IMG/VR virus record: IMGVR_UViG_3300000115_000001
Reading direction: 5' to 3' (one strand)
From: a virus
Length of the DNA: 51,055 bases
The position numbers and the translations under genes are program-made. The notes under the pieces were generated by a model. The model was not told the origin of the DNA, searched no databases, and saw only the letters and a program-made list of their open reading frames with translations. Below, one piece after another: positions 42,375-45,985 of the stretch. Numbering within the stretch: the first letter of the stretch is position 1; every line of letters starts with the position of its first letter.

Positions 42375-43280
42375 TCAAACTCCCGAACCAATCATCGGGT
42401 ATTGGTACTTCTTCGTCTCGGAGAAACTCGTTCGTTGGAAGTTCTTCTGTCCCGAAGAACGATTGATGGTATGATTGTTGACTGGGGTTGTATCTTTTTT
42501 TTTTAAATTCTCCAGCCACTCTTCGGGGAACTCTGCATCGATAGCCAAGAGATACATCTCAAGGAGAGCCACAGTAGTTTCCTCAGTTACTCCGGAGTTC
42601 TCATACATCTCACGGAGGCTCCCGATGTCAATAAACTCAGAGAGATCCGCTTCATATTTGGTTCCTGCATATGTAAGACGAACGTCTACATCCAGAACCT
42701 TATCGCCCATCTTGCCCAGTGTGATATGGATGCCATCTTTATCGATCTCATCCTGGTTATCAGTGCCGGAGGCGAAAGCTTTGGAGCTACAGTGGTGGTG
42801 GACAGTGCCCCCCACGATCCATTCTGGTCCCCAGAGGTCGCGTTGCTTGTCAAATTCGGGATCTTCGGTATCAGCTTCTGTGTGCATTCCCATCATAAAC
42901 TGAGGAAATACCCAGATGCCCCACTCTTGTGTGTCCATATTGAACATCAAGTTAAGTTGAGCCTCTTCACCCTTATGGACCACATGGGTCTTCCGCATAA
43001 AGCCGAGGACCTGTGCCCAGACATCCAGACCAATCTTCTTACCTTTGTAAACTAGGGAAGCAGATTTCAACTCAGGCAGTTTGTGCTGACGATAACCTTT
43101 GAAAAGGTCATCTTCAAACTCAGTGTAGACTCTACCCTTGTGCTGAAACAGCTCTGGGGAGGTTCTCTCGTTGTTCTTCAGTTCCTGGGTCTTCTGATTC
43201 ATCTTCTGGGAAGACGTATTCTTCGAGTTGCCGCCCTTCGGTTTTGAAGAGTTCTTTGATGTTGTTTTTGATCGCTTCAT
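42375..43280 (-). CDS. JAB/MPN+ (JAMM) metallopeptidase-domain protein (start 43280 or 43202; C-terminus ambiguous at an A10 run)
   Basis: Complete JAMM motif HHHCSSKAFASGTD (HxH-x7-S-xx-D; 42759..42800) with upstream acidic residues (KGEEAQ). Confidence 0.8.
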   Translation of the reverse strand: MKRSKTTSKNSSKPKGGNSKNTSSQKMNQKTQELKNNERTSPELFQHKGRVYTEFEDDLFKGYRQHKLPELKSASLVYKGKKIGLDVWAQVLGFMRKTHVVHKGEEAQLNLMFNMDTQEWGIWVFPQFMMGMHTEADTEDPEFDKQRDLWGPEWIVGGTVHHHCSSKAFASGTDNQDEIDKDGIHITLGKMGDKVLDVDVRLTYAGTKYEADLSEFIDIGSLREMYENSGVTEETTVALLEMYLLAIDAEFPEEWLENLKKKDTTPVNNHTINRSSGQKNFQRTSFSETKKYQYPMIGSGV

Positions 43281-43902
43281 AGTAGTCTATTGGTGCTGTG
43301 GCTTCGCTTACATTAACTTTGCCTTGCCACAGGGATGTAAAAGTCATTTGGGTTGCTATTGTATTTGGTGCGTTGAAGATACATCTCCACAACACGCACC
43401 GATAATGTTCCGCTTGGGCGTTGTAAAGGGCTACGATGTCGTCCCATTCTTGGAATACTACTACTTTTTTAACTGAAGTAGGTGGTCGGGAGTCTGGACG
43501 AAGAGGTCGTTTCGTCATTGTATCCAGATCCTCGCTACCTACGAAGTTAAGGTAATCATGGAGGGCACTGAATACGTTGCGCGTAAGTGTGATGTCACGA
43601 TATGTGCCCCATACTTCGTAAACATATTTATATATTGTTCTACAAGTTGTTGCACTGATACTTGGGTCAGTTCCCGTTCCATTTACATAATGATATATCT
43701 CTCCACAAAGATATTTAATAGAAGTCTCTGTATTTCGAAAATTGTCGAATTCTATAATATCTATTTCATCGTATTCACAATAGAGATCACTTTTATACTC
43801 CCTGTGCTTATCGATACGTGTAATTAGATTCAGGAGAGAAATTCTCGCCAAACTGTTGATAATGGCTGTGTTATCGAACACGCCTTTTTGGATGTCAATC
43901 AT
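43132..43902 (-). CDS. Hypothetical protein, 256 aa, between the E1-like and JAB genes
   Basis: Clean ORF with an acidic C-terminus. No motif recognised. Confidence 0.7.
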   Translation of the reverse strand: MIDIQKGVFDNTAIINSLARISLLNLITRIDKHREYKSDLYCEYDEIDIIEFDNFRNTETSIKYLCGEIYHYVNGTGTDPSISATTCRTIYKYVYEVWGTYRDITLTRNVFSALHDYLNFVGSEDLDTMTKRPLRPDSRPPTSVKKVVVFQEWDDIVALYNAQAEHYRCVLWRCIFNAPNTIATQMTFTSLWQGKVNVSEATAPIDYYEAIKNNIKELFKTEGRQLEEYVFPEDESEDPGTEEQRENLPRAVSAQG

Positions 43903-43913
43903 GCTTCGAGTCT

Positions 43914-44672
43914 TTATTTATCTAGATGTTCCCGATATTGCTTAGTAGTAATATACTCACTATAACATTCCCCAACTCTTATATAATACGGAGTATAATA
44001 ATATACACCGTCTATTTCTTCCTGCGGGGCACCATCTTGTATGCGACGAATATAATTGTTCGACCATACGTAAAGCAAATGCATGGCGTGATCTGCGGAT
44101 CTTGCGTTTGCGAGAGCCAATTGGGGATTTGCTTGTTGCTCCAGTCCTTGACAGCTTGCAGGGTCTCCTGACTTATCAGTGTTTATTTCTGGGAACTGAA
44201 TGCGTGGATCGTAAATTCCACTCTTCCACATCGGGAAATAAATGTAGGCTTCTGAGTCGAAATAGTCGTTGCCGAGGATGATGGCATAGGTATTGTTGGG
44301 AACATCGTGCTCTAGGTCTGAGTCAGCCAAGCGATCCACTGTCGCCAGGACAGCTTTACGGGCGACATGATTATCAGCGCACGAGAAGACAACATCTTCG
44401 TCGCCAGGGAGTCCTGTCCCCGAGGTGAACCACTCTTTCTTGATGACGAGCTTCTTAACCCAACCTTGCCAGTTGAGTGTATCCGCGAGGGCTTCTGCTT
44501 TATTCTTTCCGACCATACCTGGTCCGAATAGTTGTCGTTCCAGGTTTCGTTCTTCGAGAATATCTTCATCGTATAAAGTTAGTCGGTTAATTTTAACTGC
44601 TCGCAGGAGCAGGGGAAGTAAGTAGCTGGCGGACCCTCCGCAGCCTACAACGGTAATGTTTAATGGTTTCAT
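43914..44672 (-). CDS. ThiF/MoeB/E1-like adenylyltransferase, 252 aa
   Basis: Rossmann loop VVGCGGSASYLL. Also LYDEDILEERNLERQLF (DxD...NLxRQ), GKNKAEALA and SCADNHVARKA, all at canonical E1 spacing. Confidence 0.85.
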   Translation of the reverse strand: MKPLNITVVGCGGSASYLLPLLLRAVKINRLTLYDEDILEERNLERQLFGPGMVGKNKAEALADTLNWQGWVKKLVIKKEWFTSGTGLPGDEDVVFSCADNHVARKAVLATVDRLADSDLEHDVPNNTYAIILGNDYFDSEAYIYFPMWKSGIYDPRIQFPEINTDKSGDPASCQGLEQQANPQLALANARSADHAMHLLYVWSNNYIRRIQDGAPQEEIDGVYYYTPYYIRVGECYSEYITTKQYREHLDK

Positions 44673-44890
44673 CGTCTCCTTGAGTTAAATACTATATTAT
44701 GAATAGCATCGGGTGTTATTGCTCTAAATCCTTTGGTTGGAGCGTCTCGATAATAGATCTCATGGATTCTATCTTTTATTTCCTGACACTCCTCAGCCGT
44801 TCCAACACTTCCATGCAGCAACAGCTCAAAGTGGTGCTGAGTGAGTTTCTGTTGATCCAATGAATGGCGTTTAGTTAATGAGGCTAACAT
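44669..44890 (-). CDS. Hypothetical protein, 73 aa, between the E2-like and E1-like genes
   Basis: The ORF overlaps the E2-like stop by 20 nt and the E1 start by 4 nt (ATGA). Confidence 0.55.
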   Translation of the reverse strand: MLASLTKRHSLDQQKLTQHHFELLLHGSVGTAEECQEIKDRIHEIYYRDAPTKGFRAITPDAIHNIVFNSRRR

Positions 44891-45674
44891 ATCTCATCAC
44901 CGCCCTTTCCTGCGATACTTCTGGCTCATCCTGCTCTCTTAGAAAGTCTACAAAGGCACGCTCATTCCCGAAAGTAGTTTCTGGTTGTATAGGATTCATA
45001 TCCTGGTCGAGCTTCATCCAGTCTATATTGTAACTCAGATCCTCATTGAAGTTGGACTCCCAGACATATTCCCAGAGAAACTTTACAAAGTTCTGGTCAA
45101 GAGCAGGTTCAAATTCGTCTTTTTCTCGGCGACTTATGTCGCCAAGACATATCCTGGTATCCGGATAGTTATTAGGTAGTGCGGTTTTGTAGATGGTGTC
45201 CCCAGTGTTCGGTTTAAATACCAGGTAAATTTCATTAAGGGCCACATTGGGTCCTTCTTTTCTACAGTCTATGAACATGAGCATCTGTCCCCAATCCCAA
45301 GGAATGTTGAAGGACACATCCTTTTTAATCATGTCATCCCCCGGGCTCCTACTTCTTCGTTTGAAGATAGATGGTCGCATATGGACACCATCCCTCTCAG
45401 TGTGTGCAAGCTTCCAGTATTCAGTCCAAGGGATACTATTGAAGTTCAAGACGTAGATACGTTCTCCAGTAGCATCAAGGACCGTAACGTCCTTTGTCTC
45501 AGGTTGGCCTTCAATAAAGCTCAGAGCATTCTCAATCTTGAACATCTTGCCCAGATTGCTTAGCTGGCCCTTAGCTGCCAGTGTGCTCAGGATAGCAGCT
45601 TCTGTCCCAAGCAGTGTCTTGTTGACGGTCTCGGTAAAGACCTGTCCATTTTCGATGTAGATTCGTTCGCTCAT
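44871..45674 (-). CDS. UBC/E2-like protein, 267 aa from the ATG at 45674
   Basis: ALPNNYPDTRICLGDI compares with the UBC active site HPN[VI]x3-4GxICLxIL, with the Cys codon at 45147..45149. The longer ORF start at 45698 lies inside the terminator hairpin. Confidence 0.65.
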   Translation of the reverse strand: MSERIYIENGQVFTETVNKTLLGTEAAILSTLAAKGQLSNLGKMFKIENALSFIEGQPETKDVTVLDATGERIYVLNFNSIPWTEYWKLAHTERDGVHMRPSIFKRRSRSPGDDMIKKDVSFNIPWDWGQMLMFIDCRKEGPNVALNEIYLVFKPNTGDTIYKTALPNNYPDTRICLGDISRREKDEFEPALDQNFVKFLWEYVWESNFNEDLSYNIDWMKLDQDMNPIQPETTFGNERAFVDFLREQDEPEVSQERAVMRYVSLIN

Positions 45675-45676
45675 TG

Positions 45677-45711
45677 TATAAAAAGGCCCGAGGAACAAGT
45701 GTTCCTCGGGC
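45677..45711 (-). terminator. Rho-independent terminator/attenuator between the Ubl and E2-like genes
   Basis: Minus strand: 11-bp perfect stem GCCCGAGGAAC-actt-GTTCCTCGGGC followed by CTTTTTATACA and then the ATG at 45674. Confidence 0.75.
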
Positions 45712-45739
45712 TAAGATCGTAAGGAATAACTCTCTCTCT

Positions 45740-45985
45740 TTACGATTTGTCCGCAGCTCTCTTTTCGAAGACAACTGTATCACCAGCTTCCAAGGCATAG
45801 ACTTCAGGGTCAACTTGGCCGCCATTGACTCTGGCAGCAGCACCTTCGGGTGCACTGATCTGAGATGCAGTTGCAGGATTGCTGAGGACATTGGCCAGTG
45901 TGGTTCGAGAACCATCTGCTTGTGTGTCGCTAACGGAAAGGTCAACTCGACGCATTCCGATGCGGGCAATGATATCAATAATCAT
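45740..45985 (-). CDS. Beta-grasp ubiquitin-like (ThiS/MoaD-type) small protein, 81 aa
   Basis: ...ARVNGGQVDPEVYALEAGDTVVF... is the typical ThiS/MoaD C-terminal pattern. Small size, start 2 nt after the upstream stop. The C-terminus is EKRAADKS with no Gly-Gly. Confidence 0.6.
   Translation of the reverse strand: MIIDIIARIGMRRVDLSVSDTQADGSRTTLANVLSNPATASQISAPEGAAARVNGGQVDPEVYALEAGDTVVFEKRAADKS

What the first reader, a model, noticed from the sequence alone, without database searches (positions are those of the whole stretch)
42375..45985. Virus-encoded ubiquitin-like conjugation cassette (Ubl, E2-like, E1-like, JAB) directly upstream of the DNA polymerase gene
Six co-directional minus-strand genes carry the parts in transcription order. 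(1) An 81-aa ORF with a ThiS/MoaD-type beta-grasp signature (ARVNGGQVDPEVYALEAGDTVVF). (2) A ~267-aa ORF with a UBC-like active-site string ALPNNYPDTRICLGDI. (3) A 73-aa unknown. (4) A 252-aa ThiF/E1-type adenylyltransferase (VVGCGGSASYLL, LYDEDILEERNLERQLF, GKNKAEALA, SCADNHVARKA). (5) A 256-aa unknown. (6) A protein with a complete JAMM motif HxH-x7-S-xx-D (HHHCSSKAFASGTD). All catalytic roles of a ubiquitin-type conjugation and deconjugation cycle therefore sit inside the replication arm of an apparently lytic podovirus. Four-part Ubl/E2/E1/JAB operons are known from comparative genomics of bacteria and plasmids. They are also known functionally as bacterial anti-phage systems (Bil; CBASS Cap2/Cap3). 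I know of no established function for a full set carried by the phage itself, with extra unknown genes interleaved. Possibilities include tagging of host or phage proteins during takeover, or counter-defence against host Ubl-based immunity through a decoy Ubl or a deconjugating JAB.
Basis: partly seen in the sequence, partly recalled or inferred. Interest (0 to 1): 0.92.

Follow-up and report, generated by a model that had tools for sequence, protein, structure and literature searches.

The report
Phage-encoded ubiquitin-like protein tagging cassette
This phage carries, next to its DNA polymerase gene, a full set of genes for attaching and removing a small ubiquitin-like protein tag; the same set recurs in many uncultured phages, is only distantly related to a plasmid cassette of unknown function, and nobody has yet tested what it does.

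Summary
Six co-directional minus-strand genes at 42375-45985 encode four recognisable parts.

- **Ubl:** an 81-aa beta-grasp protein. A family profile hits ubiquitin-fold PDB entries at E=1.5e-4.
- **E2-like:** it has an invariant Asn-x7-Cys loop. hhalign against PRTRC protein B gives 92% probability.
- **E1:** a 252-aa ThiF-type enzyme with all adenylation residues and an invariant loop Cys.
- **JAB:** a JAMM protease. The AlphaFold model has pLDDT 90.8 and its best Foldseek hits are Rpn11, BilC and AMSH.

Two variable proteins of unknown function sit between these genes.

The cassette is not a one-off. In all 51 related viral or metagenomic loci with enough flank, the order is Ubl-E2-E1-JAB. 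The JAB family has 781 clusters at E<=1e-10.

Two new features emerged:
- A terminator-like hairpin follows the Ubl gene in about 74% of 68 loci.
- The Ubl ends in a conserved (A/S)(N/S)xK-Ala/Ser tail instead of Gly-Gly. Some tails carry extensions, and some Ubls are tandem, which implies JAB processing.

The closest known system is the PRTRC / "6d" cassette of plasmids, ICEs and a few phages, whose function is untested. This cassette fails several PRTRC-defining features, and it is not Bil, CBASS or ThiS/ThiF.

Most likely it is a self-contained, phage-run protein-conjugation pathway expressed alongside the replication genes. Its targets and biological role are inferred, not shown.

The parts
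45740..45985 (-). Ubl: an 81-aa ubiquitin-like beta-grasp protein. Its tail is ...AADKS, with an invariant Lys80 followed by one small residue and no Gly-Gly.
   Evidence: - A 28-sequence family profile against PDB gave ubiquitin-fold designs as top hits (E=1.5e-4 and 3.6e-3, aligned over the full domain). SAMP2, polyubiquitin, PF1061 and ubiquitin followed; 12 of 15 hits are beta-grasp.
- An 11-domain profile gave 7 of 7 beta-grasp hits.
- Pfam ThiS matched 2 of 8 members.
- The tail is conserved in 61 of 68 loci.
- Single-sequence AlphaFold failed (pLDDT 43).
45676..45711 (-). Terminator-like hairpin with an 11-bp G+C-rich stem and a U-run, placed right after the Ubl stop codon and overlapping the TTG start of the E2 ORF.
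   Evidence: - Found in the scan.
- RNA fold -28.8 kcal/mol, z=-4.7.
- The position is conserved. In 68 loci the median best hairpin after the Ubl gene is -23.1 kcal/mol, against about -9 after the E2, E1 and JAB genes. 74% reach -15 or lower, against 7-22% for the other genes.
44871..45698 (-). E2-like (UBC-like) protein: 275 aa from TTG, and more likely 267 aa from the ATG at 45674. The catalytic loop is ALPNNYPDTRICLG, with Asn176 and Cys184 (codon 45149-45147).
   Evidence: - Pfam Prok-E2_D: E=0.022 for the window protein, and 6 of 8 family members match (best 7.6e-5).
- In a PDB profile search the top 8 hits are all eukaryotic E2s, aligned at the Cys loop (E 0.07-0.8).
- hhalign against PRTRC_B: 78% with 8 sequences and 91.9%, E=6.9e-7, with 80 sequences.
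- N-x7-C-x-G occurs in 75 of 80 sequences.
- The fold was not verified by structure.
44669..44890 (-). 73-aa protein of unknown function, overlapping both the end of the E2 gene and the start of the E1 gene.
   Evidence: - A small gene fills this position in 66 of 68 loci.
- Its sequence is not conserved: the window protein is a singleton.
- No Pfam, PHROG, PADLOC or NCBIfam hit.
43914..44672 (-). E1-like ThiF-family adenylyltransferase, 252 aa. It carries GCGG (10-13), D35/D37, NLERQ (43-47), K58, DN (100-101), R105 and an invariant Cys174 (codon 44153-44151).
   Evidence: - Pfam ThiF 7.1e-12.
- Best NCBIfam match is PRTRC_ThiF, 1.8e-13 over residues 2-202, which is below the curated cut-off.
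- In a PDB profile search the top hits are UBA5 (5e-14), MccB, UBA3 and UBA2, ahead of ThiF (3e-11) and MoeB (2e-8).
- The listed residues are invariant in 85-88 of 88 homologues.
43132..43902 (-). 256-aa protein of unknown function with an acidic C-terminal region. It is an optional accessory gene.
   Evidence: - An intervening gene sits between E1 and JAB in 36 of 68 loci; 32 of 68 have none.
- There is no detectable similarity among most positional counterparts.
- hhalign against PRTRC_F found nothing, and there are no PDB hits.
42375..43280 (-). JAB/JAMM metalloprotease. The ORF is 301 aa, and the likely start is Met27 at 43202. The motif is E106 ... H161-H-H163-x7-S171-xx-D174 (42800-42759).
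   Evidence: - AlphaFold2 with an 88-sequence alignment: pLDDT 90.8, pTM 0.79.
- Foldseek against PDB gave 75 hits at E<=1e-3. The top hits are Rpn11-ubiquitin, the bacterial Ubl-deubiquitinase complex 8tyx, the Caldiarchaeum Rpn11 homologue, AMSH and CSN5.
- Prok-JAB matched 5 of 8 members and PRTRC_A 6 of 8.
- hhalign against PRTRC_A: 94.5-96.2%.
- The motif is invariant in 88 sequences.
40387..42333 (-). Context: family-A DNA polymerase with 3'-5' exonuclease, the next gene downstream.
   Evidence: - Pfam DNA_pol_A 8.6e-42 and DNA_pol_A_exo1 1.4e-9.
- A polA homologue starts within 1.5 kb downstream of the JAB gene in 42 of 77 related loci.
45988..46686 (-). Context: a 232-aa gene of unknown function. 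Its stop codon overlaps the Ubl start codon region, so the two are probably co-transcribed. It is not conserved in relatives.
   Evidence: - ORF coordinates.
- No family hit.
- No BLAST relatives in L001-L008.

Best explanation
The six genes form a self-contained, phage-encoded ubiquitin-like protein-conjugation pathway. It is a distant sister of the PRTRC/'6d' cassette of plasmids and ICEs, and it appears to be co-transcribed with the replication genes.

**Proposed mechanism. Every step below is inferred from motifs and homology. None was observed.**
1. The Ubl is made in excess over the enzymes, because a terminator-like hairpin directly follows its gene.
2. Where the Ubl is tandem or carries extra C-terminal residues, the JAMM protease trims it to expose the conserved ...Lys-Ala (here Lys-Ser) end.
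3. The ThiF-type E1 adenylates that C-terminus with ATP. It probably takes the Ubl onto its invariant loop Cys174.
4. The Ubl passes to Cys184 of the E2-like protein. Asn176, eight residues upstream, plays the oxyanion role of the canonical HPN Asn.
5. The E2 transfers the Ubl to lysines of target proteins in the infected cell. The fast-evolving 73-aa and 256-aa proteins are candidate specificity factors or targets.
6. The JAMM protease also reverses conjugation.

**Inferred biological role.** The pathway modifies host proteins, or the phage's own proteins, while the replication genes are being expressed. This would help establish infection through takeover or counter-defence. It is probably not a defence system for the host.
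For: **The four core proteins are what they seem.**
- E1: Pfam ThiF 7.1e-12. All adenylation residues and Cys174 are invariant. The best PDB matches are protein-conjugating E1s.
- E2: Prok-E2_D in 6 of 8 members. The top PDB hits are E2s aligned at the catalytic loop. hhalign against PRTRC_B gives 91.9%. The N-x7-C spacing matches canonical E2s and occurs in 75 of 80 sequences.
- JAB: high-confidence model with Rpn11, BilC and AMSH as neighbours, and an invariant Zn site.
- Ubl: a significant profile match to the ubiquitin fold.

**The cassette behaves as a selected unit.**
- The order Ubl-E2-E1-JAB holds in 51 of 51 loci with enough flank.
- Its contexts are phage-like: polA, primase, RecT/ERF and portal genes.
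- The JAB family has 781 clusters at E<=1e-10.

**The Ubl looks like a consumed substrate that gets processed.**
- A hairpin follows the Ubl gene in about 74% of 68 loci, against 7-22% after the other genes.
- The K-A tail is conserved. Some tails carry 2-8 extra residues, and tandem Ubls keep the same tail at the junction. This parallels the DUB pre-processing shown for type II Bil (PMC10557695).

**No sulfur-transfer or biosynthetic partner genes are present**.
Against: - There is no C-terminal Gly on the Ubl. The end is Ala, Ser, Asn or Gly after an invariant Lys.
- The UBC fold of the E2-like protein was not verified by structure, and the window protein alone scores below Pfam's cut-off.
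- Single-sequence AlphaFold of the Ubl failed.
- No E3-like gene and no target are known.
- The two accessory proteins have no detectable homologues or folds.
- Expression timing is inferred only from gene position.
- A role in defence or superinfection exclusion cannot be excluded.
- Many of the 80 IMG/VR loci come from related marine or freshwater phages, so the counts are not independent events.
Confidence: 0.6

Rival explanations
1. The cassette is a phage-carried defence or superinfection-exclusion system that works like Bil. It conjugates the Ubl to structural proteins of competing phages, so that the resident phage keeps the cell to itself.
For: - The only Ubl/E2/E1/JAB operons with a demonstrated role conjugate a Ubl to phage tail proteins (Bil; 10.1101/2023.09.04.556158 and PMC11601603).
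- The best Foldseek hits of the JAB model include the bacterial Ubl-deubiquitinase complex 8tyx.
- One of 8 Ubls weakly matches PADLOC BilA (4.8e-4).
- Phages and prophages often carry defence genes.
Against: - None of the 8 E2-like or 8 JAB proteins scanned matches BilB, BilC or Cap3 models.
- The E1 is a minimal 252-aa ThiF, not the multidomain BilD.
- The cassette sits at a fixed place among co-directional replication and recombination genes in diverse phages. It does not sit in a variable moron or defence hotspot.
- No integrase was noticed in the window, but this was not searched exhaustively.
Confidence: 0.15
2. The main function is counter-defence by deconjugation or decoy. The JAB strips host Ubl (Bil) or cGAS (CBASS) conjugates, and the phage Ubl, E1 and E2 serve only to titrate or mis-charge the host machinery.
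For: - The JAB is the best conserved and most widespread component (1580 clusters at E<=1e-3).
- crAss-like phages and Salmonella phage Arash carry only an E1+JAB pair, as far as quick tests show.
- Cap3-type JABs are known to reverse CBASS priming (PMC10097602, listed).
Against: - In this family the JAB never occurs without its own Ubl, E2 and E1 where enough flank is available (51 of 51).
- The catalytic Cys residues of both E1 and E2 are invariant or nearly so.
- The Ubl tail co-varies with possible processing sites.

All three points argue that the cognate conjugation cycle itself is under selection.
Confidence: 0.12
3. It is a small-molecule or sulfur-carrier pathway of the ThiS/ThiF, MoaD/MoeB or MccB type. 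The E1 would activate the C-terminus of the small protein for thiocarboxylate formation or peptide-nucleotide synthesis, not for protein tagging.
For: - The Ubl resembles ThiS/MoaD in its ...NG...GD.V.. pattern (Pfam ThiS in 2 of 8 members; MoaD hits).
- MccB is the second-best PDB match of the E1 profile (8e-13).
- E. coli ThiF also has a loop Cys (established knowledge).
Against: - There is no C-terminal Gly-Gly.
- No rhodanese, cysteine desulfurase, ThiG/H or MoaE gene lies in or near the cassette.
- An E2-like protein with a catalytic Cys and a JAMM isopeptidase are always present.
- The Ubl gene is set up for excess expression, which fits a consumed tag better than a recycled carrier.
- The E1 profile matches UBA5, UBA3 and UBA2 better than ThiF or MoeB.
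Confidence: 0.05

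Closest known systems
PRTRC system (ParB-related, ThiF-related cassette), which equals operon type 6d of Iyer, Burroughs & Aravind 2006 (PMC1779556). It is found on plasmids, ICEs and a few phages or prophages, for example Ralstonia phage Dina.
   Same: - Both have separate genes for a small beta-grasp protein, an E2-like protein that lacks the His of HPN, a minimal ThiF-type E1 and a JAB, all carried on a mobile element.
- The E1's best NCBIfam model is PRTRC_ThiF.
- JAB against PRTRC_A: hhalign 96.2%, E=2.5e-9. E2 against PRTRC_B: 91.9%, E=6.9e-7.
- Both Ubl tails end in Lys plus one small residue: KG in PRTRC_C and KA/KS here.
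- Both include fast-evolving accessory proteins.
- The function of both is untested (PMC13366799).
   Different: - The gene order is Ubl-E2-x-E1-(y)-JAB, against E-C-F-B-A-ThiF.
- There is no ParB, PRTRC_E or alpha-hel2/PRTRC_F homologue.
- The Ubl is not detectably related to Prok_Ub.
- No DUF2016/JAB-N domain was detected.
- The His downstream of the E2 Cys (THPN) is replaced by N-x-D.
- All scores fall far below NCBIfam's curated cut-offs.
- A terminator-like hairpin follows the Ubl gene. This was not examined in PRTRC.
Bil (bacterial ISG15-like) systems, types I and II (BilABCD)
   Same: - Four separate proteins: Ubl, E2, JAB DUB and E1.
- Pre-processing of a C-terminally extended Ubl by the DUB, and tandem beta-grasp Ubls, are known in type II Bil (PMC10557695). 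Both are implied here.
- The structural neighbours of the JAB model include the Bil DUB-Ubl complex 8tyx.
   Different: - Bil is a host defence system found in defence islands.
- BilD is a multidomain E1 (IAD+AAD+CYS), whereas this E1 is a 252-aa single-domain protein.
- BilB is of the CEHH/DUF6527 type. No PADLOC BilB or BilC hits were found, and BilD matches only weakly (2e-4).
- The Bil Ubl has a conserved Gly at the reactive end.
Type II CBASS Cap2 (E2-E1 fusion) and Cap3 (JAB)
   Same: - It combines E1 adenylation, an E2 Cys and a JAB reversal enzyme.
- PADLOC Cap2 models match the E1's nucleotide-binding region (4e-10, residues 5-75).
   Different: - In CBASS the E1 and E2 are fused, and the substrate is the CD-NTase C-terminus rather than a Ubl.
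- No CD-NTase or effector gene is present here.
- The match covers only the Rossmann motif.
ThiS/ThiF and MoaD/MoeB sulfur-carrier pairs
   Same: - The E1 size and adenylation motifs are the same, and both have a loop Cys.
- The Ubl has a ThiS/MoaD-like sequence pattern.
   Different: - There is no Gly-Gly end and no sulfur-transfer or cofactor genes.
- An E2-like protein and a JAB are obligatory partners.
E1+JAB pairs in other phages: crAss-like Steigviridae (ThiF plus 'metalloprotease') and Salmonella phage Arash
   Same: - A ThiF-type E1 sits next to a protein with a JAMM motif. In the crAss-like phage the pair lies within the replication genes (primase, UDG, exonuclease); the Arash pair is annotated 'structural protein' and its context was not examined.
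   Different: - No Ubl or E2-like gene was detected beside them by quick profile comparison.
- Sequence identity to the window E1 is 27-37% over part of its length.

Membership tests
PRTRC system / operon type 6d | The E1 belongs to the PRTRC_ThiF family (TIGR03736). | tested here: inconclusive
   TIGR03736 is the best NCBIfam hit (E=1.8e-13, residues 2-202 against profile 10-217), but it scores 50.4 bits against a curated cut-off of 144.75. The E1 is related but not an equivalog.
PRTRC system / operon type 6d | The E2-like protein belongs to Prok-E2_D / PRTRC_B. It lacks the HPN His and has an absolutely conserved His downstream of the Cys. | tested here: not met
   - Homology is supported: hhalign 91.9% and Prok-E2_D in 6 of 8 members.
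- The window protein scores 14.9 bits against a gathering score of 25.
- No member reaches PRTRC_B at E<=0.01.
- The downstream THPN His of PRTRC_B aligns to W/F-N-x-D-L in the phage family, with no conserved His.
- The missing HPN His is shared by both.
PRTRC system / operon type 6d | The JAB (PRTRC_A) has an N-terminal JAB-N/DUF2016 domain with a conserved Arg and Trp. | tested here: not met
   - The JAB core is homologous: hhalign 96.2% and PRTRC_A hits in 6 of 8 members, best 3.1e-6, all far below the cut-off of 101.8.
- No DUF2016 hit was found in any of the 8 members.
- Phage Dina's PRTRC_A has DUF2016 at 1.5e-25.
PRTRC system / operon type 6d | The Ubl belongs to the Prok_Ub/PRTRC_C family and has a conserved C-terminal Gly. 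| tested here: not met
   - hhalign of the phage Ubl profiles against a 7-sequence PRTRC_C alignment gave probability <=0.3%.
- There is no Prok_Ub Pfam hit.
- The reactive end is K-A/S/N, and Gly in only 4 of 61 tails.
- Only the Lys-plus-small-residue tail is shared.
PRTRC system / operon type 6d | Accessory genes are present: ParB-family protein, PRTRC_E and PRTRC_F (alpha-hel2). | tested here: not met
   - None of the 40 cassette proteins scanned hits these NCBIfam models.
- The 256-aa positional family against PRTRC_F gave hhalign probability 0.03%.
- No ParB gene is present in the cassette.
Bil (BilABCD) defence systems | The BilB-type E2, BilC JAB, BilA Ubl and multidomain BilD E1 are recognisable by PADLOC models. 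| tested here: not met
   - The window proteins give only a weak partial BilD hit (2.1e-4, residues 28-108) and no BilA, BilB or BilC hit.
- Family-wide, 1 of 8 Ubls hits BilA (4.8e-4), and 0 of 8 E2s and 0 of 8 JABs hit BilB or BilC.
- The E1 is 252 aa with a single domain.
Type II CBASS (Cap2/Cap3) | An E2-E1 fusion protein sits next to a CD-NTase and an effector. | tested here: not met
   - The E1 and E2 are separate genes.
- Cap2 models match only E1 residues 5-75.
- No CD-NTase or effector family was found among the neighbours.
ThiS/ThiF or MoaD/MoeB sulfur-carrier systems | The carrier ends in Gly-Gly, and partner sulfur-transfer or cofactor-synthesis genes are present. | tested here: not met
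   - The tail is ...K-S here and ...K-A in most relatives.
- No rhodanese, ThiG/H or MoaE gene is present.
- NCBIfam ThiF and MoeB equivalogs score far below their cut-offs.
JAMM/MPN+ metalloproteases | The E ... HxH-x7-S-xx-D zinc site sits on an MPN fold. | tested here: met
   - The motif is invariant in 88 sequences.
- The AlphaFold model has pLDDT 90.8.
- Foldseek gives probability 1.00 to Rpn11, AMSH, CSN5, BRCC36 and PfJAMM1.
UBC/E2 superfamily | A catalytic Cys lies 8 residues after the Asn of the (H)PN motif, on a UBC fold. | tested here: inconclusive
   - The motif and its spacing are met: N176-x7-C184 in the window and N-x7-C-x-G in 75 of 80 relatives.
- PDB profile hits are E2s aligned on this loop.
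- The fold itself could not be modelled, because the tool accepted too few homologues.
Ubiquitin-like beta-grasp proteins | The protein has the beta-grasp fold. | tested here: met
   - This rests on sequence profiles only. The 28-sequence profile hits ubiquitin-fold PDB chains at E=1.5e-4 and 3.6e-3 over the whole domain, and 12 of 15 hits are beta-grasp.
- The structure prediction was uninformative.

The most novel reading that the evidence does not exclude
Many tailed phages bring their own complete ubiquitin-like conjugation machinery and use it, alongside their replication genes, to tag host proteins such as defence or housekeeping factors, or their own replication proteins. This would be a prokaryotic-virus counterpart of the way eukaryotic viruses manipulate ubiquitin. 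It would use a non-glycine (Lys-Ala) reactive end and fast-evolving specificity subunits. By extension it would give the first functional handle on the enigmatic PRTRC cassettes of plasmids and ICEs.
Probability: 0.35. Interest if true: 0.9.

Novelty: new variant of a known kind. Interest (0 to 1): 0.72.

Why it matters
- **A gap in what is known.** All bacterial Ubl-conjugation pathways characterised so far (CBASS Cap2/Cap3, Bil, Bub) are host-encoded. In the full-text library I could search, no paper describes a function for such a pathway encoded by a phage. The related PRTRC cassette is explicitly described as unstudied (PMC13366799).
- **A defined family to work on.** The cassette defined here is large: 781 JAB clusters at E<=1e-10, and 122 IMG/VR contigs from a single search pattern. 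Its architecture is strictly conserved.
- **Unusual and testable features.** These are a Lys-Ala/Ser reactive end, putative polyprotein-like Ubl processing, and an attenuator-like hairpin that should set Ubl excess.
- **What validation would show.** Viruses of bacteria, like those of eukaryotes, would be shown to exploit ubiquitin-type tagging. It would also inform the evolution of E1-E2-DUB systems and could reveal a new takeover or anti-defence mechanism.

Tried and rejected
**Searches for close relatives.**
- Megablast of the region against 50,697 phage records found no match.
- tblastn of the E2-like protein against the phage records found no match.
- Single-protein scans of IMG/VR with the E1 and the E2 found no relatives. 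An alignment-derived pattern later found 122.
- Word-indexed searches with the E2 returned only itself. A concatenated Ubl+E2 alignment returned only 2 proteins.

**Structure prediction.**
- Single-sequence AlphaFold of the Ubl was uninformative (pLDDT 43).

**Family and structure searches that gave nothing.**
- A PDB profile search with the first JAB alignment gave only spurious kelch-design hits.
- PHROGs holds no family for any of the 40 non-E1 cassette proteins scanned (Ubl, E2-like, small, u6 and JAB positions). The window E1 matches only three PHROGs of unknown function.
- The 256-aa and 73-aa proteins gave no Pfam, NCBIfam, PADLOC, PHROG, PDB or PRTRC_F similarity.

**Ideas considered and set aside.**
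- Sulfur-carrier biosynthesis.
- Membership of CBASS or Bil.
- Chance ORFs.

See the rival explanations and membership tests for the reasons.

**A lead that is not a finding.** I also considered that PRTRC and this cassette are plasmid 'leading-region'/early-entry anti-defence genes. The leading-region paper does not mention ThiF, so this stays a lead.

Full report
**1. The observation**

They are:
- an 81-aa ORF, 45740-45985
- a 275-aa ORF, 44871-45698 (TTG start)
- a 73-aa ORF, 44669-44890
- a 252-aa ORF, 43914-44672
- a 256-aa ORF, 43132-43902
- a 301-aa ORF, 42375-43280

A family-A DNA polymerase follows at 40387-42333 (Pfam DNA_pol_A 8.6e-42).

The window is a phage genome. PHROGs identifies a large terminase, a portal/adaptor-type protein, a major head protein, tail proteins, a helicase and a primase. 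Bases 1-300 recur, 100% identical, at 47790-48089, and the ORF pattern repeats with the same 47,789-base offset out to the window end. The genome is therefore about 47.8 kb and appears to have been read past its start by about 3.3 kb.

Two gene starts need correcting:
- The TTG of the second gene lies in the loop of a strong hairpin, so the ATG at 45674 (267 aa) is more plausible.
- The last ORF overlaps the 256-aa gene by 149 nt. The public gene call starts at Met27, position 43202 (P0029).

**2. What each protein is**

*E1.*
- Pfam ThiF scores 7.1e-12.
- In an alignment of 24 relatives, and again among 88 locus-derived homologues, GxGG, D35/D37, N43-x-x-R46-Q47, K58, D100-N101, R105 and N135 are invariant. 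So is Cys174, which lies in the loop that carries the catalytic Cys in ThiF and MoeB.
- The family profile matches protein-conjugating E1s best: UBA5 5e-14, then MccB, UBA3 and UBA2. ThiF (3e-11), MoeB (2e-8), Cap2 and BubCD come later.

*JAB.*
- The window protein alone has no Pfam hit.
- Its homologues hit Prok-JAB (5 of 8) and NCBIfam PRTRC_A (6 of 8).
- E106, H161, H163, S171 and D174 form a complete JAMM site. E, the first His, S and D are invariant in all 88 diverse sequences, and the second His is conserved in at least 90% of them.
- An AlphaFold2 model from that alignment has mean pLDDT 90.8.
- Its best PDB neighbours are Rpn11 bound to ubiquitin, the bacterial Ubl-deubiquitinase complex 8tyx, the Caldiarchaeum Rpn11 homologue bound to ubiquitin, AMSH, CSN5, BRCC36 and PfJAMM1-SAMP2. 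There are 75 hits at E<=1e-3.

*E2-like.*
- The window protein gives only a sub-threshold Prok-E2_D hit (E=0.022), but 6 of 8 homologues hit that family (best 7.6e-5).
- The family profile's eight best PDB matches are all eukaryotic E2s aligned on the catalytic loop.
- hhalign against an alignment of PRTRC protein B gives 78% with 8 sequences and 91.9% (E=6.9e-7) with 80 sequences.
- The consensus loop is LPLPNVYxDGRICMG.
- The Asn lies eight residues before the Cys, as in the canonical HPN...C of E2 enzymes (spacing recalled from established knowledge of UBC enzymes). N-x7-C-x-G occurs in 75 of 80 homologues.
- I could not obtain a structure model, because the tool accepted too few homologues.

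*Ubl.*
- A profile of 28 non-redundant domains hits ubiquitin-fold PDB chains at E=1.5e-4 and 3.6e-3 over the whole domain. SAMP2, polyubiquitin, PF1061 and ubiquitins follow. Twelve of 15 hits are beta-grasp proteins.
- A smaller profile gave 7 of 7 beta-grasp hits.
- Pfam ThiS matches 2 of 8 members.
- Single-sequence AlphaFold was uninformative.

*The 73-aa and 256-aa proteins.* They have no detectable relatives or folds.

**3. The cassette is a conserved phage module**

- The window has no close relative among deposited phages.
- E1 homologues from metagenomes lie on phage-like contigs with the same gene series.
- An exhaustive search with the JAB found 1,580 cluster representatives at E<=1e-3 and 781 at E<=1e-10. 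Three of these, sampled at random, again sit next to a ThiF gene. One is a 66-kb phage-like contig with the full series.
- A single degenerate pattern found 122 IMG/VR viral contigs.
- Using local HMMs on 93 loci, every one of the 51 loci with at least 4.5 kb upstream of the JAB gene has the order Ubl-E2-E1-JAB.
- A small gene lies between E2 and E1 in 66 of 68 loci.
- A gene lies between E1 and JAB in 36 of 68 loci and is absent in 32 of 68.
- A family-A polymerase begins within 1.5 kb downstream in 42 of 77 loci.
- Many of these loci come from related phages, so the counts are not independent events.

**4.

*(a) A hairpin after the Ubl gene.*
- A G+C-rich hairpin with a U-run follows the Ubl stop codon (45711-45676; -28.8 kcal/mol, z=-4.7).
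- Its sequence differs between loci but its position is conserved.
- In 68 loci the median best hairpin within 90 nt after the Ubl gene is -23.1 kcal/mol. After the E2, E1 and JAB genes it is about -9.
- 74% reach -15 or lower, against 7-22% for the other genes. 51% also have a T-rich tail, against 3-6%.
- I infer a partial terminator or stabiliser that makes the Ubl more abundant than the enzymes. This fits a tag that is consumed.

*(b) The Ubl does not end in Gly-Gly.*
- Its tail is (A/S)(N/S)xK followed by one small residue: Ala in 52 of 61 tails, Gly in 4, Ser in 2 (including this window), Asn in 2 and Gln in 1.
- Several Ubls carry 2-8 further residues after K-A.
- Some phages encode tandem Ubls with the same tail at the junction.
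- This pattern implies C-terminal processing, presumably by the JAB. The same was shown for type II Bil, where the DUB removes residues after the conserved Gly (PMC10557695).
- PRTRC protein C ends in a similar Lys-Gly.

**5. Mechanism**

The best-supported reading is a self-contained Ubl conjugation cycle:
1. the JAB matures the Ubl;
2. the E1 adenylates it and probably forms a thioester at Cys174;
3. the Ubl moves by trans-thioesterification to E2 Cys184;
4. the E2 transfers it to target lysines;
5. the JAB reverses the modification.

All steps are inferred from motif conservation and homology. None was observed.

The cassette's fixed place among co-directional replication and recombination genes in diverse phages argues for a role in the phage's own infection programme, such as takeover or counter-defence. 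So do its self-sufficiency and the fast-evolving accessory genes. A Bil-like exclusion role cannot be ruled out.

**6. Comparison with known systems**

*PRTRC / type 6d is the closest.*
- Iyer et al. 2006 describe type 6d as a Ubl, an E2-like protein without the HPN His, a JAB with a JAB-N domain, an E1 and a fast-evolving helical protein, often on mobile elements (PMC1779556).
- Ralstonia phage Dina carries a complete annotated PRTRC. Its proteins map to Prok_Ub, alpha-hel2, Prok-E2_D, DUF2016+Prok-JAB and ThiF.
- BFVD lists a PRTRC_A in Acinetobacter phage ME3 and 'JAB domain-containing proteins' of uncultured Caudovirales, which are the best viral structural matches to the JAB model.
- A 2026 paper notes PRTRC in a Burkholderia prophage and states that its function has not been studied (PMC13366799).

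*The window cassette shares homologous E1, E2 and JAB cores with PRTRC but differs in these ways:*
- gene order;
- Ubl family (no similarity to Prok_Ub);
- absence of DUF2016, ParB, PRTRC_E and PRTRC_F;
- loss of the His downstream of the E2 Cys;
- scores far below the curated cut-offs.

*It is not Bil, CBASS or a sulfur-carrier pair.*
- Bil: there are no BilB or BilC hits and the E1 is minimal.
- CBASS: the genes are separate and there is no CD-NTase.
- Sulfur carrier: there is no Gly-Gly end and there are no partner genes.

**7. Novelty and verdict**

- The kind of system, a Ubl/E2/E1/JAB operon on a mobile element, is known from comparative genomics, and PRTRC sets are annotated in a few phages. 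This is therefore not categorically new.
- It is a distinct, previously undescribed and widespread variant with its own architecture and tail chemistry.
- No function is known for it or for its nearest relatives. My full-text searches found no report of a phage-encoded Ubl conjugation pathway.
- I rate it a new variant of a known kind, of high but not extreme interest (0.72).

Noticed in passing
window 1-3266 and 47790-51055: The first ~3.3 kb of the window appears to recur at its end with a period of 47,789 bases. Bases 1-300 are 100% identical to 47790-48089, and the ORF pattern repeats with the same offset out to the window end. The window is therefore a complete ~47.8-kb phage genome read past its start, or one with a long terminal repeat.
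   Followed up: partly
L021 (NC_055880.1, crAss-like phage cr111_1) 2652-4657: In crAss-like Steigviridae the annotated 'thiamine biosynthesis protein ThiF' lies directly after a 415-aa 'metalloprotease'. That protein carries a JAMM motif (GLIHSHNNMQTFFSGTD). The pair sits inside the replication module, next to primase, UDG and exonuclease genes. No E2-like or Ubl gene was detected by quick hhalign.
   Followed up: partly
L010 (OQ632216.1, Salmonella phage Arash) 1519-4539: A 412-aa Prok-JAB protein (1.4e-7) and a 346-aa ThiF protein (7.8e-15) are adjacent. The ThiF protein and the 251-aa protein upstream of the JAB are annotated 'structural protein', and the JAB protein itself 'hypothetical protein'. 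The ThiF protein is the best deposited-phage match to the window E1 (27% identity).
   Followed up: partly
L009 (NC_055026.1, Ralstonia phage Dina) 1401-5753: This cultured phage carries a complete PRTRC set (E, C=Prok_Ub, F=alpha-hel2, B=Prok-E2_D, A=DUF2016+Prok-JAB, ThiF) at one genome end.
   Followed up: yes
alignment A4 (40 cassette proteins from the window and L001-L008): One unidentified member matches PADLOC Lon-protease models (CRISPR-Lon 3.5e-6 and CARF-Lon 3.3e-3). The large E1-to-JAB intervening proteins of L002 and L004, and the L002 JAB, gave no PDB hits.
   Followed up: partly
window 46880-46847 and 47613-47588, minus strand: Two more strong terminator-like hairpins (15-bp and 11-bp stems followed by T-runs) lie upstream of the cassette. 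They may bound its transcription unit.
   Followed up: no
L022-L101, gene between E2 and E1: In 35 of 67 loci the small protein in this position forms one BLAST cluster with a conserved basic motif, ...GRKRGAILRYI.... The window's 73-aa protein is not part of that cluster.
   Followed up: partly
window 43132-43280: The 256-aa gene and the JAB ORF overlap by 70-149 nt, depending on which start is used. In relatives the corresponding genes overlap by only 4-10 nt. The true JAB start in this phage is uncertain.
   Followed up: partly
L013 (Xanthomonas citri pLH201.1) and L015 (Alteromonas pTE101a): Plasmid PRTRC cassettes lie beside a dnaN-like gene, ssb and a Ref-family nuclease gene. This neighbourhood is reminiscent of plasmid establishment or leading regions. 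It is a lead only.
   Followed up: no
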